Part shown: positions 40,198 through 58,350 of the stretch, piece by piece
Layout: every line of letters starts with the position of its first letter
Position numbering within the stretch: the first letter of the stretch is position 1
Origin: a virus
Taxonomy: Duplodnaviria > Caudoviricetes
Virus record (IMG/VR): IMGVR_UViG_3300044731_001504
Coordinates: 1 to 60,676 of that record
Reading direction: 5' to 3' (one strand)
Length of the DNA: 60,676 bases
Translations under genes and position numbers: made by a program
The notes under the pieces: generated by a model
Told to the model about the DNA's origin: nothing
The model's input: the letters and a program-made list of their open reading frames with translations, nothing else
Databases searched by the model: none

Positions 40198-41196
40198 TTA
40201 CTCAAATTTAATGTGAACATAGTTCCCTTTATGTCCTGAACCTTTAATGATATAAGGTGCAGATTTTAATTGTGGTAAAGTATCCATTAAACAATTATAT
40301 GTTTCTTTAGCTCTTGCTTTGGATAATTGTAAGTTACCAGTTCTATCATCATTATTACCAAACACATCATCGTATTCAGTAATTTCTTTCCATTTACCTT
40401 GATTACAATCGTTGTTTTTACATCCTGCAGGAATTCTTGATGTTGATGCTTCAACAGTTACTCTATTGATTTCACCACCATCCTGTAAAAACTTTTTAAT
40501 TGACTCCACAAAACTTGCTCTATGTAAATTTTTTGGTTTACTTTCGTTATCTTGGAAAAACTCCGCAATGTTATAAGACTTAGGTAATTTTAGATTATTT
40601 TTAGATATCCCAAAATCCTCTAAATTTAATTCCATTCCTGTTTCGTGAATTTTCAATCTGATACCATATTTCTTTTTACCTTCAAAATAAGATTGTTCGT
40701 AAAAAATCTCATTTCCTCTAACAGTTTTAACTGGATGTAAATCCTCATCAGCCGAGTCGTTAAAATCAGTTGATACGGTCATTCCAGCAATTACAGGTCT
40801 TCTTTTTTTCAACGAATAAAATATAATAGGAATTTGTTCATTTCCGATATTAACATTATCCTTAACCATATCGGCATAAGTAACTGAATTTTGCATATCG
40901 GAAGTTAAACCAAAATTTTTAAGGTCTTGGACTTTAGATTCAGGATTTTCAACTTCTTGGGTATTTTCAGTCCACTTAATTCCAATTTCATCCGATGATG
41001 GGAATTTAACTGACATATCAGGTTTAAGTTCTTGACCATCTTCCTTTTTTGCCAAATACATATTTTCACCATCAAAGTAAAAAATTTTACCAAAAAGAGA
41101 AAAATATCTCCCATTTTGTTTTTTTTCCTCACTTTCTTTTATTACTCTTCTTACAATTTTATGTAAATCAGAGTATGTTAATTTAACTATTCCCAT
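40198..41196 (-). CDS. leader-bearing protein with OmpA-like C-terminal domain
   Basis: leader VKLTYSDLHKIVRRVIKES; VEASTS...NLQLSKARA resembles the OmpA N..LS..RA motif. Confidence 0.6.
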   Translation of the reverse strand: MGIVKLTYSDLHKIVRRVIKESEEKKQNGRYFSLFGKIFYFDGENMYLAKKEDGQELKPDMSVKFPSSDEIGIKWTENTQEVENPESKVQDLKNFGLTSDMQNSVTYADMVKDNVNIGNEQIPIIFYSLKKRRPVIAGMTVSTDFNDSADEDLHPVKTVRGNEIFYEQSYFEGKKKYGIRLKIHETGMELNLEDFGISKNNLKLPKSYNIAEFFQDNESKPKNLHRASFVESIKKFLQDGGEINRVTVEASTSRIPAGCKNNDCNQGKWKEITEYDDVFGNNDDRTGNLQLSKARAKETYNCLMDTLPQLKSAPYIIKGSGHKGNYVHIKFE

Positions 41197-41209
41197 TATT
41201 TATATTTTT

Positions 41210-42109
41210 TTAAAACCCAAAAAATGTGTTATACAATGTATCTGCATTAATTTTAGATGGGTCACTTAAATTTAGAGAAAAATCTCTAGTTACGTCTTTA
41301 TCTTTAATATCTTTACCAGCAACAACTTTATTTGATGGTGGATTTGCATTAGTATTTTCATTACCATCATTTATATCGGCCTCAGATGGATTTTTAAGCA
41401 TTTCCACCGCTTTGGTAACTCCTCCTTTACCATAATCAATTAACATTTGTCCGGAGGCTTCGGCAACATTTAAGAAATTAGAGTTTGATTTTATTTGTTT
41501 GGCAAAATCCGCCACAAAATCTGTAATTGTTTTTTGGTCTAATCCAAAATCCGTAATTTTTGAAGGTTTGTTATTTGCCAAATTATAAAAATACTTAACT
41601 AATTTACCGTATTTTTGAGAATTGATTGTATCTGCTTGTTGCTGTGATATAAATTGCATATAATAGGCGTATCCATATAACGCAACTGCACTATATCCAT
41701 AATCAGGTATCTCTTGGTCTGTCCCATCTTTAGTTGCATTTTGAGTGTTACCTGATGAGGTTGCCACCGCAGCTGATGATGGTTTACTTTTATATGTGTC
41801 GGTCTGATATTGTTCCGGTACAGCATTACCTGGTCTCCATTTTCCGTCAACCCAAGCATTATATAGTTTTATGTTATCAGTTTCAGTTCCATTTGAACCA
41901 AATTCTTGTTTTATCTCAACCCAAGTTTTATTAATGTTTTCTTTTTTTGCAGAATCTTCAATTTCTTTTCTAACATATGAACCTTGTGGTACAGTTGCCT
42001 CATTTAGCATATTATTCCACTTTTGCTCCATTTCATATATAGTCTTTCCTCTATCAAATGACATTAATTCATATATTCTTGAGAATTCTTTTTTATCAAA
42101 ATTTTTCAT
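41210..42109 (-). CDS. hypothetical protein
   Basis: likely start MKNFDKKEFSRIYELM; MLNEA site. Confidence 0.7.
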   Translation of the reverse strand: MKNFDKKEFSRIYELMSFDRGKTIYEMEQKWNNMLNEATVPQGSYVRKEIEDSAKKENINKTWVEIKQEFGSNGTETDNIKLYNAWVDGKWRPGNAVPEQYQTDTYKSKPSSAAVATSSGNTQNATKDGTDQEIPDYGYSAVALYGYAYYMQFISQQQADTINSQKYGKLVKYFYNLANNKPSKITDFGLDQKTITDFVADFAKQIKSNSNFLNVAEASGQMLIDYGKGGVTKAVEMLKNPSEADINDGNENTNANPPSNKVVAGKDIKDKDVTRDFSLNLSDPSKINADTLYNTFFGF

Positions 42110-42189
42110 TAGGATATTATTTATTGATAAATATTTGCCAAAATGGAAAATATACTTAATCACAAATATTTATTAATAAAAACAAATAT

Positions 42190-42456
42190 ATGGAAAAGTT
42201 AATTAAGAAGTTGTTAAGAGAGATGTCTGAGGATAATCAACCCTCACCAATACATAGGTCAGGTAGATTAGATAAAGAATTAGTTGATGATGTAATCAAT
42301 AGATTACTTGATTCTGACTTTGGTAATGAATATGAAATGAAATTAAGACAACTTAACTCTGAATTTGAACCTACCAAACATAAAAGACCTAAAAGAGTAT
42401 ATTCACCTCTTCCTCCCAATATAAAAGTTATGCGCTCAATTTACCCTGAAGACTAA
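42190..42456 (+). CDS. hypothetical protein
   Basis: 88 aa, MEKLIKKLLRE leader; TATTTAT upstream. Confidence 0.65.
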   Translation: MEKLIKKLLREMSEDNQPSPIHRSGRLDKELVDDVINRLLDSDFGNEYEMKLRQLNSEFEPTKHKRPKRVYSPLPPNIKVMRSIYPED

Positions 42457-42458
42457 AA

Positions 42459-43067
42459 TTAAGATTTAGCAGGGGTTTGAGCCCCATAAGATTTACCAGG
42501 GGTTTGAGCTGGAGTTTGATTAGGGTCTTTAAATTTTGGTTTATTTCCAATACGTGTAGTTTTGTTTCTTCCTGCGTAACAAAAATTACTGTTTCTAATA
42601 ACTTTCTTAAATTCTTTATCGTCGGATGTTGCCTTCCATCCTTTCATCCCTCGTTGTAGATACGTTTCATAGGTGATTTCAACTTCAATAGATTTTCCGC
42701 TACTTTCGGGTCTAAACCATCTAAGAACATTACTTTCATTACAATCAATAATTACCATAACTTCACTATCTATTTCTCCGACTATTTCACCAGTTATTGT
42801 TAGTTTATTTACGTTATCAAATTCAATCCAAGCCGCGGCTTTGTCTCTTTGAAACTGTATAGTTTTATTCCCTTTTACATATTTAAAATATATAGTTTCT
42901 GGCAAATTTTCATCTAAATATTCATCAACCTTTTCTTCTTCAGATTTATCTTCTTCAGATTCTGATTGTTCCTTAATTAAATTCAAATATTGATTTTTAG
43001 ACGATTTAATATGACTCTCTAAAATTCTTTGTTTTTCATTCTCGTCTACATTAAAAAGATTTTTCAT
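42459..43067 (-). CDS. hypothetical protein
   Basis: leader MKNLFNVDENEKQRILESH...LIKEQ; TATTTAT upstream. Confidence 0.7.
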   Translation of the reverse strand: MKNLFNVDENEKQRILESHIKSSKNQYLNLIKEQSESEEDKSEEEKVDEYLDENLPETIYFKYVKGNKTIQFQRDKAAAWIEFDNVNKLTITGEIVGEIDSEVMVIIDCNESNVLRWFRPESSGKSIEVEITYETYLQRGMKGWKATSDDKEFKKVIRNSNFCYAGRNKTTRIGNKPKFKDPNQTPAQTPGKSYGAQTPAKS

Positions 43068-43138
43068 AGCTTTTTTATTATAAATAGTTTGATGATTTAA
43101 AAAAAATACATTATACTTTTACCAAAATAACTAAAAAT

Positions 43139-43564
43139 ATGAGTACAATTAAAAACGGTGATACTGTGACCGTAAATTACACAGGAAAATTAGAAGATGG
43201 AACTGTATTTGACACATCTTTACAAGAGGGTAGAACTCCTTTAACTGCAACTTTAGGTCAAGGTCAACTTATCCCCGGTTTTGAAAACGGATTAATCGGT
43301 ATGGAAATCGGTGAAAACAAGACGGTTGAAATTGAATCAAAGGACGCTTATGGTGATTATAACCCAATGATGGTAAACGAAGTTGAAAAAGATAAGTTTC
43401 CTGAAGGAGTTAAAGAAGGAGATATGTTACAGGGTATGAGCCCTCAAGGACCTGTTAACGTTAAAGTATTGGAAGTTAACGAGTCAACAGTTAAGATTGA
43501 CGCTAACCATCCATTAGCAGGTAAGAAATTATTCTTTGAACTGGAAGTAATTTCAGTTAACTAA
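43139..43564 (+). CDS. FKBP-type peptidyl-prolyl isomerase (SlyD/SlpA-like, no His-rich tail)
   Basis: VNYTGKLEDGTVFDTS, GQLIPGFE, AYG, DANHPLAGK. Confidence 0.92.
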   Translation: MSTIKNGDTVTVNYTGKLEDGTVFDTSLQEGRTPLTATLGQGQLIPGFENGLIGMEIGENKTVEIESKDAYGDYNPMMVNEVEKDKFPEGVKEGDMLQGMSPQGPVNVKVLEVNESTVKIDANHPLAGKKLFFELEVISVN

Positions 43565-43600
43565 AAAACAAAAAACCCCTCTTTTGAGGGGTTTTTTGTT
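43564..43600. terminator. bidirectional terminator
   Basis: AAACAAAAAACCCCTC-tttt-GAGGGGTTTTTTGTTT. Confidence 0.85.
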
Positions 43601-43608
43601 TATCCGTG

Positions 43609-44019: not shown

Positions 44020-44021
44020 AA

Positions 44022-44918
44022 TTAATCTACAAATTTAACATTAATTTTAACGTCATCAGGATTTAAAATTTTAGTTTTAACAAAAACTTCGCTAGCAAAC
44101 ATATTTTCAACTTCTTTCTTATTTGTATCACTAAAATTATAATGTTTATACATCCTTTTTGGTGATACTTCAGCGTCTATAACTAGTTTATCACCAACTA
44201 ATTCAACATTAGTTATTTTACAGTCAAAAGAAATCTTTGTATAGTCATTATCAATTACAAGAGACATAAAACTATAAAACGAAGAATTTAAAAAATTGTC
44301 TTTATAGTCCTCCATAAATTCGTTAATTCTACTGTTTTTGATTTTTTCTTCGTCAGACCCAGCAACCAAACTTTTCAAATCTTTACTCCTTAAAGTGGTA
44401 GTGTTATATATACCATCTCTTGTAACATTACTATATTGTTTTGCAGTTGCTCTGGAATATCTTTCAGATACAGAATACCATTTTCCATTTTTAAATACCA
44501 AAATAGGATACCATCCATAAGATGTGATTACATATTGTTCAACACCATTCCTGTCTTTTTGCCAATAACCTCTAACATTACTACCTTCAAACGGTATTTT
44601 AGCGTACGCATATTTTCCCGCACTTACATTTGTAACCTTTAATGCTGGAAAATTCTTTTCATTAACAAATTCTTCAGGTTTTATATTTTCATAATCACCA
44701 TTCTCACGATAATTTAATGTATATAAATAATAATATCTTTGAGCTTCCTTTGAATCCTTTCCAATCATTTTTAATCTTTTTTCCAAAAATTCAATAACAC
44801 TTTTTTTGGATTTCAATTCCTTTTTCTTTGACTGAATAAGTTTAAAGAGTAAAATAACTTCGGGAGATAACCTGTTGGTTAATTCCTCATTAAGTATTTT
44901 CTTAATTAAGTCCTTCAT
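44022..44918 (-). CDS. hypothetical protein
   Basis: likely start MKDLIKKILNEE just after TATTTAT; YVITSYGWYPI...YSRATAKQ module. Confidence 0.7.
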   Translation of the reverse strand: MKDLIKKILNEELTNRLSPEVILLFKLIQSKKKELKSKKSVIEFLEKRLKMIGKDSKEAQRYYYLYTLNYRENGDYENIKPEEFVNEKNFPALKVTNVSAGKYAYAKIPFEGSNVRGYWQKDRNGVEQYVITSYGWYPILVFKNGKWYSVSERYSRATAKQYSNVTRDGIYNTTTLRSKDLKSLVAGSDEEKIKNSRINEFMEDYKDNFLNSSFYSFMSLVIDNDYTKISFDCKITNVELVGDKLVIDAEVSPKRMYKHYNFSDTNKKEVENMFASEVFVKTKILNPDDVKINVKFVD

Positions 44919-44955
44919 ATGATATAAATATGACCAATTGTCGTATATTTGCAAT

Positions 44956-45474: not shown

Positions 45475-45494
45475 GTTATTATTATTTCAAAGTT

Positions 45495-46427: not shown

Positions 46428-46448
46428 TGTTTTTTTTATTTATTTTTA

Positions 46449-46697
46449 TTAATATCTACCTGTTATAAATATCTCAACTACTTCAGGAATTCTTGTACAA
46501 ATGTGTTTTTCTCCATTTGATTTTGTACAATCAATGTATGGAAGTTCTTTAATATACTTTTTAATCTCTTTGGGACCCTTCTTTAGCATATGGACAACAT
46601 AATCCCTACTATAAAGTTTATCAGGGTCGTACGACTCTTTAATCACTCTTTTAATTAGTGAAATTAATTGTGTTTCTATTAATTTTATTTTATTCAT
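46449..46697 (-). CDS. leader-bearing hypothetical protein
   Basis: MNKIKLIETQLISLIKRVIKES. Confidence 0.7.
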   Translation of the reverse strand: MNKIKLIETQLISLIKRVIKESYDPDKLYSRDYVVHMLKKGPKEIKKYIKELPYIDCTKSNGEKHICTRIPEVVEIFITGRY

Positions 46698-46700
46698 ATC

Positions 46701-47249: not shown

Positions 47250-47294
47250 ATCAAATAAATATGTAAATAATTAAAACCCTTAGTTTTTGTTAAA

Positions 47295-47777: not shown

Positions 47778-47798
47778 TGTATTTTGTTTTCAATTTTT

Positions 47799-48152
47799 TT
47801 ATTCTTCAGTAAAATATATTCCAATTAATTGGTCCATAGATAATCCAAGTCGCCTAAGACCTACTATTATCATAAATTCCTTTTCAGTTATTTCATTACC
47901 CAAAAAATCCATAAAGAAATAACGTTCTTTATGTTGTCTTTGATATAACCATTTGAAATTCCCAATGGTGATTAAATACATTGGTCCATAATTATTCAAA
48001 TATAAATTAAGTTGCCAACTTGTGATATAATCATCAAATCTCATTGGGACATCATACTTAGTTTGAACTAACTCTATTTTACCTGTAAGGTCAACATTGT
48101 ATTTATCCTTGATAAAACTTTTTAACGATGACTCTGTAATAATATATTTCAT
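47799..48152 (-). CDS. leader-bearing hypothetical protein
   Basis: MKYIITESSL; TATTTAT upstream. Confidence 0.7.
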   Translation of the reverse strand: MKYIITESSLKSFIKDKYNVDLTGKIELVQTKYDVPMRFDDYITSWQLNLYLNNYGPMYLITIGNFKWLYQRQHKERYFFMDFLGNEITEKEFMIIVGLRRLGLSMDQLIGIYFTEE

Positions 48153-48175
48153 TATTAATAAATACCTATTCTAAT

Positions 48176-48201
48176 AAAAAAACCCCAATTAAGGGGTTTT
48201 T
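48176..48201 (-). terminator. intrinsic terminator
   Basis: AAAAACCCC-aattaa-GGGGTTTTT. Confidence 0.7.
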
Positions 48202-48203
48202 AA

Positions 48204-48404: not shown

Positions 48405-48406
48405 AA

Positions 48407-48722: not shown

Positions 48723-49490
48723 TTATCTCAAACTAAATTTAACGGGAATTGTCATTTTTAACGAAACAGGATTACCATTCATTTTTGCCGGAACAAATTT
48801 ACCTAACATTTTAACAGCATTCACCGCACACTCCCCAAATTTTTGACTTTCTTCACAGGGTCTAACTATTTCAATGTTTGAAACATCTCCATCCTTATTA
48901 ACCACAAATGAAACATATAACATACACTCCAATCCAAAATTCTTTTCTTGTTGTGGATATACAATATATTTTGCTAAATCTTCATATAAATCCCCATTAT
49001 ATTTTGGCATTTCTTGAGCATAAGTGAAAATCTGTTCAGTTTGTTTTTTAACCTCAACAACGGCATCATCAAATGGTTCATATACATTTGAGCTGTCATC
49101 AGAGTTATCATATCCGATTTTTTGTCTCCACATTTCATCAACACTTTTTAAATTATCAAAAATTTCATCGTCAGTAACTTCGATATCAGTAAATTTAACA
49201 TTAGAACGAAATGAAGATTTATTTTGAACCTCCTCAACTTTTTTTGGTTCAACAACTTTTTTTGGTTTTTCTTCAATAGGTTTTATGAAATATTCAGTGG
49301 TGGTTATTATCACTTCAGGTTTTATTAGTTCATTTGACCTCATTATCATTGGCAATGCAAAAATTAATGTGATAAAAGAACATGCCACAAATGTTGATAA
49401 CATTAATCGTTTTGGATAGTTCATCCGAAGTTTGTACGCCCCGTAATCCTTTACGCGACCATCAAAAATTAAATCAAGATACTTTTTCAT
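48723..49490 (-). CDS. tonB: energy transducer TonB (Bacteroidota-type)
   Basis: LDLIFDGR.KDYGAY.LR N-terminus, TM helix, EEKPKK linker, C-terminal EMP.Y.G...I.YP...VSFVV.KDG....PAKMNG.PV....IPVKF. Confidence 0.85.
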   Translation of the reverse strand: MKKYLDLIFDGRVKDYGAYKLRMNYPKRLMLSTFVACSFITLIFALPMIMRSNELIKPEVIITTTEYFIKPIEEKPKKVVEPKKVEEVQNKSSFRSNVKFTDIEVTDDEIFDNLKSVDEMWRQKIGYDNSDDSSNVYEPFDDAVVEVKKQTEQIFTYAQEMPKYNGDLYEDLAKYIVYPQQEKNFGLECMLYVSFVVNKDGDVSNIEIVRPCEESQKFGECAVNAVKMLGKFVPAKMNGNPVSLKMTIPVKFSLR

Positions 49491-49536: not shown

Positions 49537-49887
49537 TTACCAATCAATTCCAGGACCAAATTTCCTTTCATCTTTTATTTCATTTTCAATAAGTTCAATA
49601 TTTGGTCCAAATACTGGACTTATTCTGGCTTCAATTTCAGATATTAAATCATCAAAATAGTAGTATGGGTAACTAATGTATATATCAATATAAACTTTTA
49701 ATTTTTTAGATATCTCAATACCTGAGACTTTAATTTTATCTACGGAATCCACCTGTTTAATTTCACCCATCATATCCATACTCCAATCTTCACTTTCTTC
49801 CTTAATATTTTTAAGTGCAATATCAATTGCTCGTTGAATTGGGGTATGTAATTTTGTTAATTGAGATTCGGTTATAAGATATTTCAT
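49537..49887 (-). CDS. leader-bearing hypothetical protein
   Basis: likely start MKYLITESQL at 49887. Confidence 0.7.
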   Translation of the reverse strand: MKYLITESQLTKLHTPIQRAIDIALKNIKEESEDWSMDMMGEIKQVDSVDKIKVSGIEISKKLKVYIDIYISYPYYYFDDLISEIEARISPVFGPNIELIENEIKDERKFGPGIDW

Positions 49888-49891: not shown

Positions 49892-51043
49892 TTAAGCTGT
49901 TGGATAATTTGGTGAACTTGTGGCAGAATTGATTTTTTTAGAGTTCTGAACATACTCATTTTTCCAATCGTTGTACATTGCGTCTAAATTAACCGTATAA
50001 TCTACTTTTTCTTCCTCATATTTACTACCATCAAAAACATCATCAACCATCGTGTAATTTGAAAATAGATAAACTAAATCATCATTAATTTTTCCATTTG
50101 ATAGGACATACATCACCCTATCTTTTAATGATTCACAATTTTCATCCAATTTTATAACATTAGATTCTATACTATATGGGCACCCCTCAAAAGAAATGGT
50201 TTTGTCTTCCATCGCTTTTTTAATTGAGGTAACAAAAGTATTTAAATCGGACGATATGGTTAAACCGTATTTGCTTAATATGTTAAATAATGTTTTAAAC
50301 CTAACAAACTGCTCATCAGTATCTCTTTGGTATTCTCCCCACATCAGATAGTTGTCGTTTGCCATTGATTGGTGTGGGAATGGGACTATACCACTATCAA
50401 TACGAACACCTTTATGTAAAATAATTCCGTTATTTGCAAACCAATTGTCAATTAAATGACCCAACTCGTGTTGGATTGTGTTTTTCCAATCTTCTGAATC
50501 TCCAATTTTATAATTGTCAACAAATAAAACTGAACTTAATCCACATATGAATATTTTTGGGCCATATGCACTGTCAGTTAACATTAATGTATCTGGCGAT
50601 TTTTCATTATAAGTGAAATCTAACTCAAAATTAACTTTATTAAATAAATCACTTTTCATTGATTCAATAACTTTAATTATATTTTCCTTACTTGTTTTTT
50701 TTCCATTTTTTTCTGATATCATAATAATTTTATCCAAAATTTCAGGATTTTTATTATAATCAAAATAATCAATATAGAATTGTTTCGCATCAGGTAAAAG
50801 TGATTGAGCATATTCAATTGGTTTTAAATCCCGAATTCTTTTTTCAACATACTCTTGTAAATCAAACTTGCATTTTCCTCTTTTATATACGTCAGTATAA
50901 GGGATTTTGTCAGACCAATTTTGTTCAATCCACTCTTGACAGGTTTGGGAAGGTTTTCCTTCTTCAACTTCTTTTAATATATGTGAATATAGACCTCTAA
51001 TATAATTTTTTTCAGACTCTGTTATAATAAATTTTTGTCCCAT
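49892..51043 (-). CDS. leader-bearing HExxH metalloprotease-like protein
   Basis: MGQKFIITESEK...ILKE leader; IQHELGHLID. Confidence 0.65.
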   Translation of the reverse strand: MGQKFIITESEKNYIRGLYSHILKEVEEGKPSQTCQEWIEQNWSDKIPYTDVYKRGKCKFDLQEYVEKRIRDLKPIEYAQSLLPDAKQFYIDYFDYNKNPEILDKIIMISEKNGKKTSKENIIKVIESMKSDLFNKVNFELDFTYNEKSPDTLMLTDSAYGPKIFICGLSSVLFVDNYKIGDSEDWKNTIQHELGHLIDNWFANNGIILHKGVRIDSGIVPFPHQSMANDNYLMWGEYQRDTDEQFVRFKTLFNILSKYGLTISSDLNTFVTSIKKAMEDKTISFEGCPYSIESNVIKLDENCESLKDRVMYVLSNGKINDDLVYLFSNYTMVDDVFDGSKYEEEKVDYTVNLDAMYNDWKNEYVQNSKKINSATSSPNYPTA

Positions 51044-51055
51044 ACTTTATAAATA

Positions 51056-51373: not shown

Positions 51374-51380
51374 AGTACTA

Positions 51381-52319: not shown

Positions 52320-52396
52320 AATAATATTTTTTTATATAAATACTTCTGTAAAATAAAAAACCCCCTCAATTGATAGATAGGTTTGTTTTTCACTAA

Positions 52397-53080
52397 CTAA
52401 TCAAAATTTTTTAACACTTCAATAACTTTATTAGTCAATTCATCATAATCCGCAAATATTACGGAATCAATAACATCGTGACTAGTTTCACTCACAACAG
52501 TGTGACCGACGGACATAAATGGAAAGCACCTAATTTGTTCAAAACAAAACATTTTATCTGAATAGTGAATATTTAATAAAATTTTTGATTTTCTAATTAT
52601 TTTATCTCTCTCTTCTCCAAATAACCCATTGTGATAACCAATAACTTTAACATTAATTCCTTTAGATGAAATTTGATTTACAATGTTTTCCCTTCTTCTA
52701 CTCATCCATCCAACAACACAAACATCATAATCATATATATTGTCAATATTATATGATATTAATTTTTCCTTGTACTCATCCCAAGCCTCCATTTTTATAT
52801 ATTTTGTCTTGAATATATTATGCCTATTTAATAATTCAATATTATACGTACTAAATGTCCATATTTCATAGATATGGTTTTGGGATAAACTATTATAATA
52901 CAAATAAGAATCACTAGTTTCTTCATCTGTTAATTGTTCGGTCATAAATAAAATATGTTTCTCATTACTCATTGAGTGCTTAACATGTATCGGATATTCG
53001 GCTTTAGGGCACAAGTCAGATTTTAAAAAATTATTTAACTCAATGAAATGAGGGTACTCCTGACTATAAACAATATTCAT
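52397..53080 (-). CDS. glycosyltransferase (GT-B C-terminal-like)
   Basis: YDVCVVG.MS.RR, FGEERD..I.KSKILLNIH, EQIR, VVSE; resembles the N-terminal module of 18975-21848. Confidence 0.75.
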   Translation of the reverse strand: MNIVYSQEYPHFIELNNFLKSDLCPKAEYPIHVKHSMSNEKHILFMTEQLTDEETSDSYLYYNSLSQNHIYEIWTFSTYNIELLNRHNIFKTKYIKMEAWDEYKEKLISYNIDNIYDYDVCVVGWMSRRRENIVNQISSKGINVKVIGYHNGLFGEERDKIIRKSKILLNIHYSDKMFCFEQIRCFPFMSVGHTVVSETSHDVIDSVIFADYDELTNKVIEVLKNFD

Positions 53081-53101
53081 ATAATGATAAATACCCTTGT
53101 G

Positions 53102-53132
53102 AAATAAAAAACCCCTCATTGAGGGGATTTTC
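53102..53132 (-). terminator. intrinsic terminator
   Basis: AAAAACCCCTCA-t-TGAGGGGATTTT. Confidence 0.7.
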
Positions 53133-53153
53133 AAAATATTTTTAAATTAATTA

Positions 53154-53456
53154 TTAATATTTAATACTCAAATGTCCAGGTATCATAGAATGATTACCTA
53201 TTTTTCGGTTCCCAACTATCTTATCTAGTTTTAGATATTCATTAATACTTAATGATTGAACTCTTTTTGGAAATACAATGTATTTTTCACTTTCATCTTT
53301 TTTAACTTCATATCTAAGTTCGTTATTAATCGCCTTAACCATTTGGTCAATACTTGAATTAACTTCAGATGACTTATCATCTTTTTTAGATTCATTTACA
53401 ATTTTTCCAATTAATCTAGTTAATTCGGATTCTGTTAATTTAACAACTTTTTTCAT
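53154..53456 (-). CDS. leader-bearing hypothetical protein
   Basis: MKKVVKLTESELTRLIGKIVNES. Confidence 0.75.
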   Translation of the reverse strand: MKKVVKLTESELTRLIGKIVNESKKDDKSSEVNSSIDQMVKAINNELRYEVKKDESEKYIVFPKRVQSLSINEYLKLDKIVGNRKIGNHSMIPGHLSIKY

Positions 53457-53496
53457 AATGGTGTTTTATAATAAATATATCACCAAACAAAAAATT

Positions 53497-53997
53497 CTAT
53501 ACCTCATCTTCAGAATGTTTCATAATACTTACAGGTTCCACAAATGTCCCCTTCAAATCAGACATTTCTTTTTTATACTGCTCAATGGTTTCAGCAGAAT
53601 AGATTGGAGCGAATAATGGACGATGACTAAACGGAACATTATCTCGGTTTTCCCAATCCACCAATTCTTTTTCCCATCCAGGAATGTGGGTTTCTATAAA
53701 CCTATAATTTTTCCATTTCTCCAAATCTTCTTTTGTTGGGACAAATTTAACATCTCCATAGTTTTCAATATCCAAATCAGGATTGTTTGTGTAAACATCA
53801 ACAACACCTTCGTCACCGAAATAACGATAACATAACTCCTGAACCGTATGCGGGTTTATATGTTTTTCTTTCCAGTTCCTTCCATAAGAACGAACATCAC
53901 AGATATAGAAATACCCATCCTCAAAAGAATTAATTTTGGAGTCAACTTCATTCTTTAATTTAATGAGCTCATCAAAAGTGTAGTTATCTAAATTCAT
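53497..53997 (-). CDS. hypothetical protein
   Basis: likely start MNLDNY directly after a TATATTTG element. Confidence 0.7.
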   Translation of the reverse strand: MNLDNYTFDELIKLKNEVDSKINSFEDGYFYICDVRSYGRNWKEKHINPHTVQELCYRYFGDEGVVDVYTNNPDLDIENYGDVKFVPTKEDLEKWKNYRFIETHIPGWEKELVDWENRDNVPFSHRPLFAPIYSAETIEQYKKEMSDLKGTFVEPVSIMKHSEDEV

Positions 53998-54069
53998 AGA
54001 GCAAATATAAAACAAAAAACCCCATCAAACAAATGAATGGGGTTTAAATTATTTTCTATACAATACTTG

Positions 54070-54441
54070 TTAAACCGGTAAAGGACAATATTTTGACCTT
54101 ATTTCATTCTCAACATTCGGCTCAAGTGTTGAATATCCAGAATAACCGCATTTACACGGGTCTTGGTCTGCACGTTTTACATATGCATAACCTGTCTCAC
54201 AATCAAAATACAAAACTTTCCCTTTCCATTCTTCACTATCTATAATTTCAAATTTAACAAGTTCTGTTCCTTCGTAATCAACTTTTTCCAAATATTCTAT
54301 AGTTAATACTCCCCAATCTTTTCTTTCTTGTTTGTACGGATTATAAAGTTTTGTTTTATAAATTCCTTCAGATTGTTCTTTTATAACTCTTTTAACAAGT
54401 TTAATCAAATCTGATTCTGTTAATCTTACAACTTTTTTCAT
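54070..54441 (-). CDS. leader-bearing paralogue A1 (FDCETG/CxC/SKYCPL family)
   Basis: near-identical to 54454-54825 outside three variable loops. Confidence 0.8.
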   Translation of the reverse strand: MKKVVRLTESDLIKLVKRVIKEQSEGIYKTKLYNPYKQERKDWGVLTIEYLEKVDYEGTELVKFEIIDSEEWKGKVLYFDCETGYAYVKRADQDPCKCGYSGYSTLEPNVENEIRSKYCPLPV

Positions 54442-54453
54442 AATTAATTTATT

Positions 54454-54825
54454 TTAACTTTGCAAAGGACAATATTTTGACCTTATTTCATTTTCAACAT
54501 TCGGCTCAAGTGTTGTGTACCCACCAATACCCAGACCACATCTGCATACTTCCTCGTCTGGTCTTTTTATATATGCATACCCTGTTTCACAATCAAAATA
54601 CAAAACCGCAGACGCCCAATTGGGATTTTTAATTTCAAATTTAACAAGTTCTGTTCCTTCGTAATCAACTTTTTCCAAATATTCTATAGTTAATACCCCC
54701 CAATTTGTTTCCTTTCTGTCTCGACTATAAATTTTTGTTTTATAAATCCCTTCAGATTGTTCTTTTATAACTCTTTTAACAAGTCTAATCAAATCTGATT
54801 CTGTTAATCTTACGACTTTTTTCAT
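54454..54825 (-). CDS. leader-bearing paralogue A2
   Basis: tandem duplicate of A1. Confidence 0.8.
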   Translation of the reverse strand: MKKVVRLTESDLIRLVKRVIKEQSEGIYKTKIYSRDRKETNWGVLTIEYLEKVDYEGTELVKFEIKNPNWASAVLYFDCETGYAYIKRPDEEVCRCGLGIGGYTTLEPNVENEIRSKYCPLQS

Positions 54826-54849
54826 ATTAATATTTTACAATAGTTAAGA

Positions 54850-55260
54850 TTACATTTCATCATCCCCATTAATATTGGGAGAATTAAAAAATTCATCAAT
54901 TAATGCAATTTCTTCTTTAGCTAGTCTATAAATTGTTTTCAGATTAGGACATCCATAGGTTTTAGATAATTTAAACATCTTCATAATGTTTTCTTTAGCG
55001 GCGTTATTCATTATATCTCCAATCTGAGAAATTTCCTCAGGTTTCACATTAAATTCTATTAAATCTTTTCTTACCTGAAGTATTTCGTATTCCATTTCGT
55101 TACAAAATCTTCTCGTACCTTCACCATGACGTGTAAAGATATGACCCGTTTTACTTGACGGAAAAGAATCATCAGGATAAGGTATTTCACCACCCTCTTT
55201 AATAACCTTTTTAATTAAACCTATCAAATCAGATTCGGTTAATCTTACAACTTTTTTCAT
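54850..55260 (-). CDS. leader-bearing protein with unrelated body
   Basis: MKKVVRLTESDLIGLIKKVIKE followed by a body with no visible similarity to A1-A3. Confidence 0.75.
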   Translation of the reverse strand: MKKVVRLTESDLIGLIKKVIKEGGEIPYPDDSFPSSKTGHIFTRHGEGTRRFCNEMEYEILQVRKDLIEFNVKPEEISQIGDIMNNAAKENIMKMFKLSKTYGCPNLKTIYRLAKEEIALIDEFFNSPNINGDDEM

Positions 55261-55294
55261 AATAATATTTTACAATAAATATATCAGATTTATT

Positions 55295-55660
55295 CTAAAT
55301 TGGTAACGGACAATATTTTGACCTTATTGCGTCTTCAACATCTTGTTCAAGTCTTGTTTGACCATAAGAGCTACACGTACAATCTATTTCAATTTTAGGT
55401 TTAACATATGAAAAACCTGTTTCACAATCAAAAAGCAAAAATTCATCTTCCCAATTTGTAATTTTAAATTTTACAAGTGTCGTATTTTTGTAATCAACAT
55501 TTTTTAAATATTCTAAAGTCATTTCCTCACCACTAAATTTTATTTTGGACCTGTCAGAATTATAAATTTTTGTTTTATATGTTGTATCAGATTGTTCTTT
55601 TATAACTCTTTTAACAAGTTTAATCAAATCTGATTCTGTTAATCTTACAACTTTTTTCAT
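55295..55660 (-). CDS. leader-bearing paralogue A3
   Basis: same leader, FDCETG, CTC, IRSKYCPL. Confidence 0.8.
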   Translation of the reverse strand: MKKVVRLTESDLIKLVKRVIKEQSDTTYKTKIYNSDRSKIKFSGEEMTLEYLKNVDYKNTTLVKFKITNWEDEFLLFDCETGFSYVKPKIEIDCTCSSYGQTRLEQDVEDAIRSKYCPLPI

Positions 55661-55687
55661 ATTAATATTTTACAATAAATATATCTG

Positions 55688-55738
55688 AAAATAAAAAGGG
55701 GGTAGGGGGGATTGGAACAACGGGGAAAAAAATTTTTA
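55688..55738. repeat. G-rich intergenic direct repeat, copy 1
   Basis: aaataaaaaGGGGGtaGGGGGGattGGaacaacGGGGaaaaaaattttta. Confidence 0.85.
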
Positions 55739-56017
55739 TTCCCTATCAGAATATTCAAGATACACCCCGATTTCATTTTTAATCCCAAGTTTTTTCAGGG
55801 TATCAAAAATTAGAGATTTAATATCTTGCCAAACTTCAATGTAGTTCATAATAAATGGTTCAAAGTCAATGAATAAAAAAACATTGTACCTAAAATTTTT
55901 TTCATCATCTCTATAATAGCTACGCATATCACGTTCAGTTGTCACCTCAACATTATTAAAACCAGGATATTTCTTATCCAAGATATGCGTAACAACAGTT
56001 TTAATATAATTCTCCAT
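55736..56017 (-). CDS. hypothetical protein
   Basis: 93-aa ORF. Confidence 0.65.
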   Translation of the reverse strand: MENYIKTVVTHILDKKYPGFNNVEVTTERDMRSYYRDDEKNFRYNVFLFIDFEPFIMNYIEVWQDIKSLIFDTLKKLGIKNEIGVYLEYSDRE

Positions 56018-56020
56018 ATC

Positions 56021-56434
56021 TTAACATTTTCCAGTATTATATACCTTAACATTGTGACCTCTAAACAATCCACCACCATATTTAAATAACATCTTAGAAA
56101 TAATCTCGTTATAGATATTCACGGTTCCTTCGTCAAACATATATCTCAATCTATTTTCGGGTGATGGTTCGGGAATAAACATAACCAAATCAAACGAATA
56201 CTGGGTGGGAATAATCTGATAATCACAATATCTTAATCCAGTCTTGGGAAAATCCTTTTCCATAAGAATCTTTGCCAAATATATCATATCTTTTTTAGAA
56301 CCAGTTATACCTGTTATGGAAATAATCTTCTCAGGAGTTATACCTAGTATATTGGATAATTTTTCCATTCCATATTTTTCCAATAATTGTCTAATGGTTT
56401 CACTAGCTTGGGATTCGGTTATAAGATATTTCAT
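56021..56434 (-). CDS. leader-bearing hypothetical protein
   Basis: MKYLITESQ. Confidence 0.7.
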   Translation of the reverse strand: MKYLITESQASETIRQLLEKYGMEKLSNILGITPEKIISITGITGSKKDMIYLAKILMEKDFPKTGLRYCDYQIIPTQYSFDLVMFIPEPSPENRLRYMFDEGTVNIYNEIISKMLFKYGGGLFRGHNVKVYNTGKC

Positions 56435-56450
56435 ATATCAATAAAAAGGA

Positions 56451-57326
56451 TTATTTCTTACAGAATCTATTTATATTCCACTCACCGCTTTTTGATTTGT
56501 TATAGTCCGCCAAAAACTTTCCATCTTTTGTGGAATGAATTCTATCAAAAGTACCAGCTCCTTTTTTACCAACAAATGTCACACCACAATATTGCTCAAC
56601 AGCTCTTTCCGTATTCTTATCGTAGAATGGTTCAGGAATAATTGTTTTTTCGGGTTCAATTGCCGTTGTGGTTATTACAGGCGGAGTTGTGGTTGTTGTG
56701 GTAATAATTGGCTCAACAACGGGAGAGGTTGTTTTGGTTGTTACAACAACAGGTTCCTCATAAACAGGTTTGATTGGAGGTTTAACAACTGGTAACCAAA
56801 GGTTTGCGAAGCGTTTATCCCATCCCCCATAGTCATGTCTCCATGAAGTGATAATATCTTTTAATTTAAAATCACTAAATATTTTATAATAAACGTCAGC
56901 ATCATTTTTAGTAATAGTAAGCGTACTATATCGGATAAAATTACTTGATTTGTATAAATCTGAAACATGAGGTTCTCCAATTGATGTAGAATAAATGAAA
57001 TCCATCATATATGCCGGCCAATTAAGCCAGTTACTCAAACTTGTATTCCCCACTAATTTTTTTTGATAATCATATTCATTACCTTCTGTTGAATACTCCA
57101 CGTCAAACCTAATGTTTCCATTTTTAATACTCTTGCCTTTCATACTGAATGAGCCATCAGACGTATTTTCGTTTTTTTTGTTTCTGGTGAAATAATCATA
57201 AAACATTTTTTGAACATTATAAATGTCCATTGCGGCTTTATATTTCTTTTTATCTGTATAAACCTTTTGTTCAGATAAAACTTGCTTAAGAGAGCGATAT
57301 TGTGATTCTGTAATTAGATATTTCAT
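56451..57326 (-). CDS. leader-bearing protein with Thr/Pro-rich linker
   Basis: MKYLITESQY...VLSEQ; VVTTKTTSPVVEPIITTTTTTPPVITTT. Confidence 0.7.
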   Translation of the reverse strand: MKYLITESQYRSLKQVLSEQKVYTDKKKYKAAMDIYNVQKMFYDYFTRNKKNENTSDGSFSMKGKSIKNGNIRFDVEYSTEGNEYDYQKKLVGNTSLSNWLNWPAYMMDFIYSTSIGEPHVSDLYKSSNFIRYSTLTITKNDADVYYKIFSDFKLKDIITSWRHDYGGWDKRFANLWLPVVKPPIKPVYEEPVVVTTKTTSPVVEPIITTTTTTPPVITTTAIEPEKTIIPEPFYDKNTERAVEQYCGVTFVGKKGAGTFDRIHSTKDGKFLADYNKSKSGEWNINRFCKK

Positions 57327-57346
57327 ATATTAATAAATATATTCAG

Positions 57347-57396
57347 AAATAAAAAGGGGGGTAGGGGGGATTGGAACAACGGGAAAAAAATTTTTA
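57347..57396. repeat. G-rich intergenic direct repeat, copy 2
   Basis: aaataaaaaGGGGGGtaGGGGGGattGGaacaacGGGaaaaaaattttta. Confidence 0.85.
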
Positions 57397-58350
57397 TAAA
57401 TTATTCTTAATCAAGTTATAATAAAACTTGCTAATATCATCAGGTGAAGTTATATTACGCTCCCTCAATCGTGCTCTAATATTTTCAATAAAGGCAACAA
57501 GATGAGATTCAGGAACGGTTTTATACATTTCAACGGGAATATATTTTTTATCAATTAATCCCATAACTTGCAGTTCCCTGATTTTCCGTGATGCAAAATT
57601 ATCGGCAGTTGTTTCAATTTGCTTCATAAACTTGGCGGTATCAACAACGGAGATTTCATCGTTATAAAATTCATTCATTTTTTCAATACCATATTTCTTA
57701 TACTGATACTGATGGGCAATTTCGTGAAATATAACAAACAAAGCAAATCCCAATGGACGACCAAGAATAACATTATTAATTAATACCCCGTTATGCAATG
57801 CCGCCCCAAGGGCAGCATATTTAAATTCAGAAAATTCTATTTTCTGACAACCTGATTTCTCAATAAAATTTACAACAAAATCAACCAATTCATCTGACAT
57901 ATTAAATTTTGATTTCAAGGTTTCAATAAAATCCCCAAGACCAGATGTTTCCTCATTAATAATACGTTCAACCAAATTTGATTCTGACAATCTTGATTTA
58001 GGAAGGCTACTATACCCTTTATCAATATAATTCCTCAAATAAGATTCAACCTTATCTGAAAAGAATTTAATAACCATTTCGGATGGGATGGAATTAATTA
58101 TTTTTAACTTTTCAATGGATGGATAATGGTCGTCAGGTGTTAAACTATTAAATCTAGAATCATATTTAAAATGAAATTCATACCCATGATTATATCCAAA
58201 TATTTCCCCTTTTTTATAAAGATATACCGTGGCAGTTATTTTATCGAGCCCGTTATCATACCTATAAATAATATCAAATGTGATACCAAGTTGTTTAAAT
58301 AGGTTTGATAATAATTCAACAGATTTATTTTCAGTTATAAGATATTTCAT
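57394..58350 (-). CDS. two-module protein with an internal leader copy and HExxH metalloprotease-like domain
   Basis: start MKYLITEN; internal RLSESNLVERIINEE; IFHEIAHQYQ...E..AD. Confidence 0.7.
   Translation of the reverse strand: MKYLITENKSVELLSNLFKQLGITFDIIYRYDNGLDKITATVYLYKKGEIFGYNHGYEFHFKYDSRFNSLTPDDHYPSIEKLKIINSIPSEMVIKFFSDKVESYLRNYIDKGYSSLPKSRLSESNLVERIINEETSGLGDFIETLKSKFNMSDELVDFVVNFIEKSGCQKIEFSEFKYAALGAALHNGVLINNVILGRPLGFALFVIFHEIAHQYQYKKYGIEKMNEFYNDEISVVDTAKFMKQIETTADNFASRKIRELQVMGLIDKKYIPVEMYKTVPESHLVAFIENIRARLRERNITSPDDISKFYYNLIKNNL

What the first reader, a model, noticed from the sequence alone, without database searches (positions are those of the whole stretch)
40198..58350. 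Shared N-terminal leaders fused to unrelated domains: candidate large-scale capsid cargo-packaging system
Seen: leader family 1 (K.V.LTES(D/E)L..L(V/I)K(R/K)VIKE) starts the ORFs at 40198, 46449, 53154, 54070, 54454, 54850 and 55295. Family 2 (MKY(L/I)ITE(S/N)) starts those at 47799, 49537, 49892, 56021, 56451 and 57394. Shorter variants start those at 36816, 42190, 44022 and 32351. The bodies are unrelated (OmpA-like, HExxH proteases, Cys-loop paralogues, unknowns), similarity stops at an (I/L/V)xE site, and none has a hydrophobic signal peptide. Known: T4 internal proteins carry a short capsid-targeting leader that the gp21 protease removes after (I/L)xE, and they are injected with the DNA; a gp21-type protease is encoded at 514-1248. 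Inference: this phage uses modular capsid-targeting tags to load many different effectors for delivery at infection, far more than T4's few internal proteins.
Basis: partly seen in the sequence, partly recalled or inferred. Interest (0 to 1): 0.88.

Follow-up and report, generated by a model that had tools for sequence, protein, structure and literature searches.

The report
Shared capsid-targeting leaders on phage proteins
An uncultured giant T4-like phage puts the same short N-terminal tag, ending in the cutting motif of its head protease, on many unrelated small proteins, which most likely marks them for loading into the capsid.

Summary
Thirteen minus-strand ORFs start with one of two related leaders: MKKVVRLTESDLxxLVKRVIKE in 7 and MKYLITE(S/N) in 6. 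Their bodies are unrelated apart from one paralogue trio. A profile of the 22-residue leader finds 6,841 protein-cluster representatives in public data. A strict DNA pattern for it hits at least 120 viral contigs but only one contig in 185,579 prokaryote genomes. Similarity stops at an invariant Glu (I-x-E). One body occurs behind three different leaders, always joined right after h-x-E. The phage and its relatives encode a T4 gp21-type (S77) prohead protease. In a scan of about 300 a-x-b residue pairs, LxE and IxE, the published gp21 cleavage motif, are the two most depleted pairs in leader-bearing bodies. This held in two data sets. Seven of the 13 leader genes carry the promoter-like TATTTAT that also precedes the head genes. 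The best reading (about 0.65) is a T4-type capsid-targeting propeptide system on an unusually large scale. Cleavage, packaging and injection are not shown. The evidence is weaker for family 2 and weakest for the four "shorter variants". This is a new variant of a known kind.

The parts
514..1248 (-). T4 gp21-type prohead core serine protease (Peptidase_S77), the presumed enzyme that removes the leaders
   Evidence: Pfam PF03420 at E 4.3e-24, 85.5 bits. At least 599 IMG/VR contigs encode relatives, the best 80 at 78-100% identity.
40198..41196 (-). Family 1 leader ORF, 332 aa. Leader MGIVKLTYSDLHKIVRRVIKE at nt 41134-41196. The body has an OmpA-like C-terminal domain.
   Evidence: Orthologues at 47-51% identity carry the canonical MKKIIKLNESDL..RVIKE leader.
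46449..46697 (-). Family 1 leader ORF, 82 aa. Leader at nt 46635-46697.
   Evidence: HMM 46.8 bits.
53154..53456 (-). Family 1 leader ORF, 100 aa. Leader at nt 53391-53456.
   Evidence: HMM 47.8 bits. TATTTAT at -21.
54070..54441 (-). Family 1 leader ORF, 123 aa, 4 Cys. Paralogue of 54454 and 55295.
54454..54825 (-). Family 1 leader ORF, 123 aa. Paralogue of 54070 (72% identity in the body).
54850..55260 (-). Family 1 leader ORF, 136 aa. The body is unrelated to its neighbours.
   Evidence: Near-identical leaders sit on about 20 different bodies in metagenomes.
55295..55660 (-). Family 1 leader ORF, 121 aa. Paralogue of 54070.
47799..48152 (-). Family 2 leader ORF, 117 aa, starting MKYIITE.
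49537..49887 (-). Family 2 leader ORF, 116 aa, starting MKYLITE. The start has been revised to 49887.
49892..51043 (-). Family 2 variant ORF, 383 aa, starting MGQKFIITESEKNYIRGLYSHILKE. The body carries HELGH.
   Evidence: The same subtype, M(G/K)KFIITEEEK.., recurs in IMG/VR loci.
56021..56434 (-). Family 2 leader ORF, 137 aa.
56451..57326 (-). Family 2 leader ORF, 291 aa.
57394..58350 (-). Two-module ORF, 318 aa. It consists of a family 2 leader, an N-domain, an internal leader-like RLSESNLVERIINE (residues 120-133, nt 57952-57993) and a HEIAH domain.
   Evidence: Alignment A5. The two halves occur as separate leader-bearing ORFs in L194 and L193 and in P0005.
32351..32974 (+). Possible diverged family 2 leader (MEILISEKQ), unproven.
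   Evidence: The G001 orthologue starts MKYLIKESQ. No HMM support.
36816..37433 (+). Possible short leader variant, unproven.
   Evidence: The G001 orthologue starts MNIKKLIKKVLTES. HMM 5.2 bits only.
42190..42456 (+). Possible short leader variant (MEKLIKKLLRE|MSE), unproven.
   Evidence: The G001 orthologue (MSKLNSQIKKAIKE|MSQ) lies beside the major capsid gene.
44022..44918 (-). Possible short leader variant (MKDLIKKILNEE), unproven.
   Evidence: HMM 2.7 bits. No G001 orthologue at E <= 1e-5.

Best explanation
The leaders are capsid-targeting propeptides of the T4 kind.

Proposed mechanism (inferred):
- A late-expressed protein carries the tag at its N-terminus. The tag is a short beta-like stretch, KKVVRL, followed by an amphipathic helix, TESDLxRLVKRVIKE. 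Family 2 carries the minimal form, MKYLITE.
- The tag recruits the protein into the assembling prohead core.
- The S77 prohead protease (514-1248) then cuts after the L/I-x-E sites, LTE|S and/or IKE|Q.
- This frees the mature body inside the head, from where it can leave with the DNA at infection.
- Internal copies of the tag in multi-domain proteins would act as cleavable linkers, giving polyprotein cargo.

Shown here:
- the tag family and its protein-level conservation;
- its modular fusion to unrelated bodies;
- its restriction to viral contigs of a clade that encodes S77;
- avoidance of LxE and IxE in family 1 bodies.

Inferred, not shown: binding to the core, cleavage, presence in virions, ejection, and any effector role.
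For: 1. Protease. S77 is encoded in the window and in 3 of 4 related IMG/VR records that carry 5-10 leader matches each. The fourth record is a 37-kb fragment.

2. Leader logo. It was built from 201 copies in 149 proteins. L7 is 89%, T8 87%, E9 96%, I20 88% and E22 95% conserved, and positions after 22 are variable. Both conserved Glu residues sit in L/I-x-E. The T4 review PMC9026906 (passages read) gives that motif as the gp21 cleavage motif. PMC5694885 (passages) reports T4 Alt cut at ITE-6 and LTE-619. Those are the same tripeptides as in MKYLITE and RLTES.

3. Modularity. The HEIAH domain of 57394 occurs in three settings, with the junction always h-x-E|ET(S/E)G: behind a family 1 leader (P0005), behind MNLHENIRRILKE (L193), and behind the internal RLSESNLVERIINE in the window. 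The N-half occurs alone in L194.

4. Protein-level selection. The invariant residues L7, T8, S10, L12 and R18 use 3-4 synonymous codons each among 19 copies.

5. Scale and host range. 6,841 representatives score E <= 1e-3. That one is a 3.3-kb piece in a Bacteroidetes MAG.

6. Motif avoidance. In 130 family 1 bodies from 80 IMG/VR loci, [LI]xE is at 0.69 of expectation (CI 0.58-0.80). In the other 664 proteins of the same loci it is 1.19 (CI 1.14-1.22). Controls are equal between the two groups: [LI]xD 1.15 and 1.15, [LI]xK 1.13 and 1.13, Ex[LI] 1.12 and 1.16. The metagenome set gives 0.81 against 1.24. In an unbiased scan of 291 and 313 a-x-b pairs, LxE and IxE are the two most depleted pairs in both sets.

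7. Shared promoter-like motif. TATTTAT occurs 72 times in the window. Of these, 34 lie within 35 nt upstream of a same-strand start, against 1.8 expected. It precedes the protease, TerL, portal and ORF 1797, and 7 of the 13 leader genes. G001 shows the same, including its scaffold-like gene.

8. A head-module protein shows the same boundary. Window 6164-7477 reads MAKRNIKE|APINYPEG and its G001 orthologue reads MKKEKLVKRLVSRLNE|APIGYEGP.

9. A related pattern in another phage. The huge phage LR756508 has a run of small ORFs 3-7 kb downstream of its portal gene with analogous leaders, such as MKLTERKLRNLVKEVLKE and MKVTEEKLRKVIRREIKE.
Against: - There is no direct evidence of cleavage, packaging or ejection. 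No cultured phage carries the leader: tblastn against 50,697 phage records found nothing, and Flavobacterium phage immuto has 0 matches. No virion proteome can therefore be consulted.
- The 22-residue leader is longer than the T4 tag, and almost every position is conserved, polar ones included. That hints at a more specific or additional partner.
- Bodies are often acidic (pI 4.7-9.6), unlike the basic T4 internal proteins.
- Family 2 bodies show no significant [LI]xE depletion: 92 observed against 88.2 expected, ratio 1.04, CI 0.88-1.24. A loose regex set of 'other leader-like' proteins shows none either (1.16).
- The G001 major capsid protein is certainly exposed to the protease, yet it has 9 [LI]xE against 4.6 expected. 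The scaffold-like protein is not enriched (11 against 11.0). Motif counts therefore do not simply track exposure.
- The two body sets used for the depletion test may share sequences.
- OmpA-like and Cys-rich bodies suggest action in the periplasm, which would need a particular ejection route.
Confidence: 0.65

Rival explanations
1. The tagged proteins are head-core or internal structural components, such as scaffold helpers, DNA-condensing proteins or filler. They would be recruited by the tag and then degraded or retained, not delivered as effectors. The tag may not be cleaved at all.
For: - Analogous leaders sit on small ORFs inside the head module of LR756508, and G001 has such ORFs beside its capsid gene.
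- The capsid protein N-terminus MGALLESGLVGNIGLKHLKVIKE is identical in 74 of 79 relatives and echoes L(T/L)ES.L and (R/K)VIKE.
- 129 of 133 bodies have no recognisable enzyme domain.
Against: - The bodies are extremely diverse and fast-turning: 6,841 clusters, and 15 unrelated bodies in this window. That fits accessory cargo better than structural parts.
- Some bodies look like enzymes or binding domains: HExxH and an OmpA-like fold.
- Avoidance of LxE and IxE in the bodies argues that the bodies survive the protease rather than being degraded.
Confidence: 0.15
2. The tag serves a process outside the capsid. It could be recognised by the phage's ClpB-like AAA+ protein (11528-13576), act as a timed degradation signal, drive oligomerisation, or target a compartment.
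For: - Nearly every helix position is conserved, polar faces included, as expected for a specific protein-protein docking peptide.
- A ClpB-like gene lies next to the head module both in the window and in G001.
- The leader genes sit among accessory genes such as PPK2, TonB_C and GH19, not in the head module.
Against: - It does not predict that similarity ends at an invariant Glu in L/I-x-E.
- It does not predict the specific LxE/IxE depletion.
- It does not predict the match to the T4 Alt sites ITE and LTE.
- No test for binding to the AAA+ protein was run.
Confidence: 0.12
3. The shared 5' ends are hitch-hikers on mobile promoter or terminator cassettes that shuffle genes. They would have no protein-level function.
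For: Repeated intergenic cassettes precede several leader genes. One is a 66-nt repeat at 55674-55739 and 57332-57397. Terminator-plus-TATTTAT units occur at 48158, 52336 and 53087.
Against: - Invariant residues are encoded by 3-4 synonymous codons.
- 53 of 201 leader copies are internal and have no promoter in front.
- The leader is kept in orthologues whose bodies are only 47-51% identical.
Confidence: 0.03
4. The leaders are RiPP-type or secretion-type signals. They would guide a modifying enzyme or an export system.
For: A conserved leader before a hypervariable, sometimes Cys-rich body (P0121, P0132) resembles RiPP precursor families. The OmpA-like body would act outside the cytoplasm.
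Against: - The bodies are 60-360 aa and folded.
- None of the 40 window proteins scanned with Pfam, of 82 ORFs, is a RiPP enzyme.
- There is no hydrophobic h-region.
- The related genome G001 uses ordinary lipoprotein-type signal peptides on other ORFs.
Confidence: 0.03

Closest known systems
T4 capsid targeting sequences (CTS) of internal proteins IPI, IPII, IPIII and of Alt, removed by gp21
   Same: - A short N-terminal propeptide is shared by otherwise unrelated proteins.
- The phage encodes an S77 protease.
- The propeptide ends in L/I-x-E. The Alt sites ITE-6 and LTE-619 equal the tripeptides in MKYLITE and RLTES.
- The genes lie in plastic regions away from the head module.
- The review PMC9026906 (passages) already proposes the CTS as a general way for T4-like phages to load varied proteins.
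   Different: - At 22 residues, the family 1 leader is slightly longer than the 10-19 residues reported for T4, and it is far more conserved.
- There are at least 13 tagged genes in a 60.7-kb fragment and 6,841 clusters overall, against a handful in T4.
- Internal copies occur in multi-domain proteins.
- Many bodies are acidic.
- Nothing has been shown experimentally.
- Homology to the T4 CTS was not tested.
Propeptide-bearing inner-body and ejection proteins of phiKZ, 201phi2-1 and SPN3US
   Same: - Many head-internal proteins, some forming paralogue families, are processed C-terminal to Glu by a gp21-related protease.
- Conserved N-termini on diverged paralogues have been noted for SPN3US gp53 and gp54 (PMC5694885 passages).
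   Different: - Those phages use the S80 protease and an S/A-x-E motif, and most of their propeptides exceed 100 residues.
- Here the protease is S77. The S80 score of 16.5 bits is below the cut-off of 23.4.
- The motif here is L/I-x-E and the tag is 7-22 residues.
Encapsulin cargo-loading peptides
   Same: It works alike in one respect: a short portable peptide directs unrelated cargo into an HK97-fold shell.
   Different: As I recall, encapsulin tags are usually C-terminal, bind the shell protein directly and are not removed. No encapsulin is involved here. This comparison rests on recall and was not tested.
Mobile regulatory cassettes and hyperplastic regions of T4-type genomes
   Same: Repeated terminator and promoter units flank the small variable genes. 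This could drive cassette shuffling.
   Different: Here the conserved unit extends into the coding region and is selected at the protein level.

Membership tests
T4-type CTS cargo processed by a gp21 (S77) prohead protease | The phage encodes an S77 prohead protease | tested here: met
   PF03420 at 4.3e-24 in the window. Present in 3 of 4 related records.
T4-type CTS cargo processed by a gp21 (S77) prohead protease | A short N-terminal propeptide is shared by otherwise unrelated proteins | tested here: met
   There are 7 + 6 ORFs with 7-22 residue leaders. The bodies are unrelated except one paralogue trio. One body is found with three different leaders.
T4-type CTS cargo processed by a gp21 (S77) prohead protease | The propeptide ends in the cleavage motif L/I-x-E | tested here: met
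   E22 is 95% and I20 88% conserved; E9 is 96% and L7 89%. The motif is as given in PMC9026906. This is sequence-level evidence only.
T4-type CTS cargo processed by a gp21 (S77) prohead protease | The propeptide is actually removed by the protease | not testable with these tools
   This needs N-terminomics or an in vitro assay.
T4-type CTS cargo processed by a gp21 (S77) prohead protease | The protein is present in proheads and virions and is ejected with the DNA | not testable with these tools
   There is only indirect support: LxE and IxE are the two most depleted residue pairs in family 1 bodies. Family 2 shows no such depletion.
T4-type CTS cargo processed by a gp21 (S77) prohead protease | Expression together with the head (late) genes | tested here: inconclusive
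   The promoter-like TATTTAT is shared with the protease, TerL, portal and scaffold-like genes and with 7 of 13 leader genes. The timing of this promoter class is itself inferred.
T4-type CTS cargo processed by a gp21 (S77) prohead protease | Sequence homology of the tag to the T4 CTS | not tested
   No T4 sequences were fetched. The tags are too short for a homology test. Only the published site names ITE-6, LTE-619 and LIE-9 were compared.
phiKZ-type inner-body proteins (S80 protease, S/A-x-E, long propeptides) | An S80 protease and propeptides longer than 100 residues | tested here: not met
   S80 scores 16.5 bits, below its cut-off of 23.4, while S77 scores 85.5 bits. The leaders are 7-22 residues.
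Sec, Tat or lipoprotein signal peptides | A hydrophobic h-region in the first 30 residues or so | tested here: not met
   The maximum 15-residue hydropathy in the first 45 residues is <= 1.4 for all 17 ORFs.
RiPP precursor peptides | A short core peptide and a co-encoded modifying enzyme | tested here: not met
   The bodies are 60-360 aa. No RiPP enzyme family was found in the 40 of 82 window ORFs scanned with Pfam.

The most novel reading that the evidence does not exclude
An abundant, uncultured clade of giant T4-like phages, probably of Bacteroidota, uses one near-universal 22-residue tag. The tag serves both as an address for the prohead and as a protease site. With it the phages load dozens of fast-evolving proteins per genome into the capsid, thousands of families in all. 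Some are loaded as polyproteins that are cut into several cargoes. They are then injected with the DNA. On this reading a simple leader profile becomes a catalogue of the injected arsenal of phages that nobody has grown.
Probability: 0.4. Interest if true: 0.85.

Novelty: new variant of a known kind. Interest (0 to 1): 0.7.

Why it matters
If the reading holds, one short profile marks the proteins that an abundant group of uncultured giant phages carries inside its heads. Such proteins act first at infection. [quoted passage not shown] A catalogue of thousands of unknown tagged bodies would therefore be a rich source of candidate counter-defence and take-over functions.

The tag could also serve as a portable packaging signal. 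In addition, the unbiased recovery of L/I-x-E from residue-pair depletion shows a way to infer a prohead protease's specificity, and its substrates, from sequence alone.

Tried and rejected
- **Megablast** of 53000-58400 and **tblastn** of the 54070 ORF against 50,697 phage records found nothing.
- **Pfam and PHROGs** on 10 leader proteins gave 0 families each. Pfam on 10 further leader-like ORFs gave one sub-threshold hit. PHROGs on 10 head-module proteins gave only families of unknown function.
- **PDB sequence search** with three bodies gave nothing meaningful.
- **ESM Atlas** for 40198 gave only a weak OmpA lead at 0.82.
- **Co-fold** of the protease (alignment of 40) with the 30-residue leader (alignment of 7) returned 'no answer', score 0.00. 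This is not evidence either way.
- **AlphaFold model of 57394** had pLDDT 59, and Foldseek gave no match with E <= 0.1. The HExxH 'protease' label therefore stays a motif-level guess.
- **Word-index search with the family 2 leader** returned only orthologues of 56021. Family 2's spread was instead judged from 80 IMG/VR loci.
- **[LI]xE counts in single head proteins** were not decisive. ORF 1797-2504 is enriched (11 against 4.6, P 0.002). The scaffold-like protein is not, and the capsid protein is enriched rather than depleted.
- **A third leader type** (E.I.R...MG[LVY]) was looked for. Only 2 window ORFs fit it, so it is reported in passing.
- **Literature.** 'LTESDL' occurs in 0 papers of the searchable library. 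'Capsid targeting sequence' together with 'metagenom' gave 1 unrelated paper.
Supplementary Figure 1 of PMC5694885, which shows the T4 IP propeptides, could not be seen.

Full report
**What the window is.** The 60,676-base window is a whole IMG/VR virus record with about 31% G+C. It encodes a T4-type head module on the minus strand. This comprises a Peptidase_S77 (gp21-type) prohead protease at 514-1248 (E 4.3e-24), a T4-type portal at 2518-4332 (1.5e-77) and a T4-type large terminase at 4370-6133. The nearest cultured phages by portal are distant: Microcystis phage Mel-JY01 at 41% and Flavobacterium phage immuto at 36.5%.

The clade is abundant. At least 599 IMG/VR contigs encode relatives of the protease, the best 80 at 78-100% identity. 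G001 is 242 kb and estimated 82% complete. Relatives reach 304-321 kb.

**The observation.**
- A family 1 HMM scores the 7 ORFs at 46.8-57.8 bits. Nothing else in the six-frame translation exceeds 8.7 bits.
- The family 2 core K[YF][LI]I[TK]E occurs 6 times, always at an ORF start, against 0.026 expected.
- The bodies are unrelated by BLASTP except for the trio 54070, 54454 and 55295.
- None has a signal-peptide-like hydrophobic stretch.
- The four 'shorter variants' get no statistical support of their own. Two of them have G001 orthologues with clearer leaders.
- G001 has a hybrid, MKKFIITESQLEFIVKRYLNE, that links families 1 and 2.

**How far the leader reaches.** A profile of the 7 window leaders (30 residues each, alignment A1) was searched against 1.84 billion cluster representatives. 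It found 6,841 proteins at E <= 1e-3 and 64 at E <= 1e-10.

I examined 149 of the best 150. They hold 148 N-terminal and 53 internal copies. The logo is MKK[IV][IV][RK]LTESDLxR[LI]VKRVI[KN]E, with E9 at 96% and E22 at 95%, and variable sequence from position 23 on. Most internal copies are not preceded by Met, so they are real inter-domain modules rather than gene-calling fusions.

Pfam recognises almost nothing in the bodies. Four weak hits turned up in 133 proteins scanned. The 17 of the 150 left out were the window's own protein and 16 fragments of 30-55 aa.

In viral contigs the leader occurs in clusters, with 1-8 ORFs per locus in 7 loci. Records G001-G004 hold 8, 10, 5 and 8 matches. In G001 all 8 lie between 223.9 and 241.5 kb, about 30 kb from the head module.

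A strict back-translated pattern matches at least 120 viral stretches. In 185,579 prokaryote species genomes it matches a single contig. That contig is a 3.3-kb piece binned with a Bacteroidetes MAG, and it looks like phage DNA. The refuting condition named in the finding, a leader profile that mainly hits non-phage sequence, is therefore not met.

**Selection acts on the protein.** Among 19 leader copies, the invariant residues L7, T8, S10, L12 and R18 are each written with 3-4 synonymous codons. Orthologues of 40198 whose bodies are only 47-51% identical keep a canonical leader. This rules out a purely DNA- or RNA-level explanation.

**Modularity.** ORF 57394-58350 is a fusion of two cassettes.
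- Its N-half occurs alone in L194, behind MIYLIRESQ.
- Its HEIAH half occurs alone behind a family 1 leader (P0005) and behind a different leader, MNLHENIRRILKE (L193).
- In the window the second leader survives as an internal RLSESNLVERIINE.
- In all three settings the conserved body starts right after h-x-E, as ET(S/E)G.
- AlphaFold places the N-terminal leader of 40198 as a low-confidence helix (residues 8-20) followed by a disordered linker. It places the internal leader of 57394 as a low-confidence helix between two domains.

**Link to the prohead protease.** The T4 literature gives L/I-x-E as the gp21 motif. It describes 10-19 residue N-terminal capsid targeting sequences that load otherwise unrelated proteins (PMC9026906, passages). 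It also reports that Alt is cut at ITE-6 and LTE-619 (PMC5694885, passages).

The two conserved Glu residues of the leader lie in LTE and I(K/N)E, and family 2 is essentially M-K-Y-L-ITE. Three of the four related records with leaders encode the S77 protease. The fourth is a 37-kb fragment.

A head-module protein shows the same boundary. Window 6164-7477 and its G001 orthologue have unrelated N-termini (MAKRNIKE and MKKEKLVKRLVSRLNE) and become alignable exactly after the Glu.

**An unbiased test.** If the bodies sit in proheads with an L/I-x-E protease, they should avoid that tripeptide.
- In 130 family 1 bodies (16,777 aa) from 80 IMG/VR loci, [LI]xE is at 0.69 of the composition expectation (bootstrap CI 0.58-0.80). 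In the other 664 proteins of the same loci it is 1.19 (CI 1.14-1.22).
- The controls do not differ between the two groups: [LI]xD, [LI]xK, Ex[LI] and aromatic-x-E.
- The metagenome set gives 0.81 (CI 0.68-0.92) against 1.24.
- I scanned all a-x-b pairs with enough counts, 291 in one set and 313 in the other. LxE and IxE are the two most depleted pairs in both sets, with z of -4.8 and -3.5 in one and -3.4 and -3.5 in the other.

There are four caveats.
- The two sets may overlap.
- Family 2 bodies show no significant depletion (1.04, CI 0.88-1.24).
- The window's own 13 bodies are too few to test (0.90, z -0.6).
- The capsid protein of G001 is not depleted.

**Expression class.** The heptamer TATTTAT occurs 72 times in the window. 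Of these, 34 lie within 35 nt upstream of a same-strand start, against 1.8 expected, and they serve 33 of 82 ORFs. These ORFs include the protease, ORF 1797, the portal, TerL, and 7 of the 13 leader genes. ORF 40198 has TATAAATA instead, and most of the rest follow a leader gene directly. G001 shows the same pattern, including its scaffold-like gene.

Other genes, such as the ClpB-like one, carry TAnnTTTG, the Bacteroidota-type -7 box as I recall it. That leader genes share a promoter type with head genes is observed. That this type is 'late' is inferred.

**What the bodies are.**
- 40198 ends in an OmpA/MotB-like peptidoglycan-binding fold, by Foldseek with best E 4e-3 and consistent top hits.
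- 49892 and 57394 carry HExxH, but no family or fold could be assigned.
- The trio 54070, 54454 and 55295 has four Cys.
- The rest are unknown.
- Body pI ranges from 4.7 to 9.6.

'Effector' is therefore an inference from the T4 analogy.

**Verdict.** I put it at about 0.65 for capsid targeting plus S77 cleavage. I put it at about 0.4 for the full picture of large-scale delivery of effectors.

It is a new variant of a known kind. The CTS principle is established in T4, and the T4 review already suggests it as a general loading device. New here are the long and almost invariant tag, its use as an internal linker, its scale, and its home in an abundant uncultured clade. I found no paper containing the core leader motif LTESDL.

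Noticed in passing
window-wide, for example 1249-1275, 4333-4369, 6128-6150, 55661-55685, 57327-57345: The promoter-like heptamer TATTTAT lies 11-35 nt upstream of 33 of 82 ORFs, with 34 of its 72 occurrences so placed against 1.8 expected. A second class of genes (ClpB-like 11528, 13593, 29948, 44956, 53497) has TAnnTTTG instead, which I recall as the Bacteroidota -7 box. No Shine-Dalgarno sequences are evident.
   Followed up: partly
window 25734-27905 and 27923-29878 (-); also L193 206-586 and 1272-1643: This is a further N-terminal motif type, E.I.R...(L/I/M)MG(L/V/Y), as in MNKKILNEINRQRQIMGL and MKQNISEILQRQLLLMGY. It sits on two large proteins (723 and 651 aa) here and on small ORFs in related contigs. 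One copy, MNLHENIRRILKE, replaces the family 1 leader in front of the HExxH body.
   Followed up: partly
window 30852-31652, 42459-43067 (-); P0102: This is another recurring N-terminal motif, (V/E)(D/S)E.EK.RI(L/K)..H, as in FLNVDKSERQNILDLH and FNVDENEKQRILESH. In P0102 it sits in front of three internal family 1-like copies.
   Followed up: no
window 34944-36020 (+): The polyphosphate kinase 2 (PF03976, 3.7e-71) has a 117-residue N-terminal extension containing ..HMIQSLTESKL... Its G001 relative is a 595-aa protein that starts MRNLLTEVSKMKNIMGLTE. An enzyme of known family may therefore also carry a leader-like N-terminus.
   Followed up: partly
G001 189654-191504 (-), loci L114-L192: The major capsid protein N-terminus MGALLESGLVGNIGLKHLKVIKE is identical in 74 of 79 relatives that are only 72-86% identical overall. 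It echoes the L(T/L)ES.L and (R/K)VIKE parts of the leader.
   Followed up: partly
L011 (LR756508.1 149500-156500), ORFs 2905-3339, 3625-3909, 3899-4411, 5258-5524, 5571-5993, 6342-6884: A 484-kb uncultured phage has a run of small ORFs just downstream of its portal gene. All start with an analogous leader of the form MK(L/V/I).E.KLR..(I/V)...(I/L)KE. One of them is homologous to the ORF that precedes the protease in Microcystis phage Mel-JY01.
   Followed up: partly
window 55674-55739 and 57332-57397; 48158-48196, 52336-52364, 53087-53126: Intergenic cassettes are repeated upstream of leader genes. One is a 66-nt unit with a G-rich block (GGGGGTAGGGGGGATTGGAACAACGGG) next to the TATTTAT site. 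The others are hairpin-plus-promoter units. They may drive shuffling of leader-gene cassettes.
   Followed up: no
window 11528-13576 (+): A ClpB/ClpA-like AAA+ gene (682 aa) lies right beside the head module and is conserved in the same place in G001 (69% identity). This is unusual company for head genes.
   Followed up: no
window 1797-2504 (-) and 23004-24989 (-): Two proteins of unknown family are enriched in [LI]xE: 11 against 4.6 expected (P 0.002) and 14 against 6.1 (P < 0.001). This is as expected for core proteins that are cut into pieces. ORF 1797-2504 sits between the portal and protease genes, where I recall T4 has its prohead core genes 67 and 68.
   Followed up: partly
window 32971-33891 (-) and 59922-60380 (+): Two further small ORFs carry HExxH (HEFTH, HEYTH) without a recognisable leader. 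HExxH bodies are therefore common in this region.
   Followed up: no
window 48723-49490 (-), 34044-34880 (-): A TonB C-terminal domain protein (PF03544, 4.7e-14) with its own membrane anchor, and a PG_binding_1 + GH19 lysin, lie among the leader genes.
   Followed up: no
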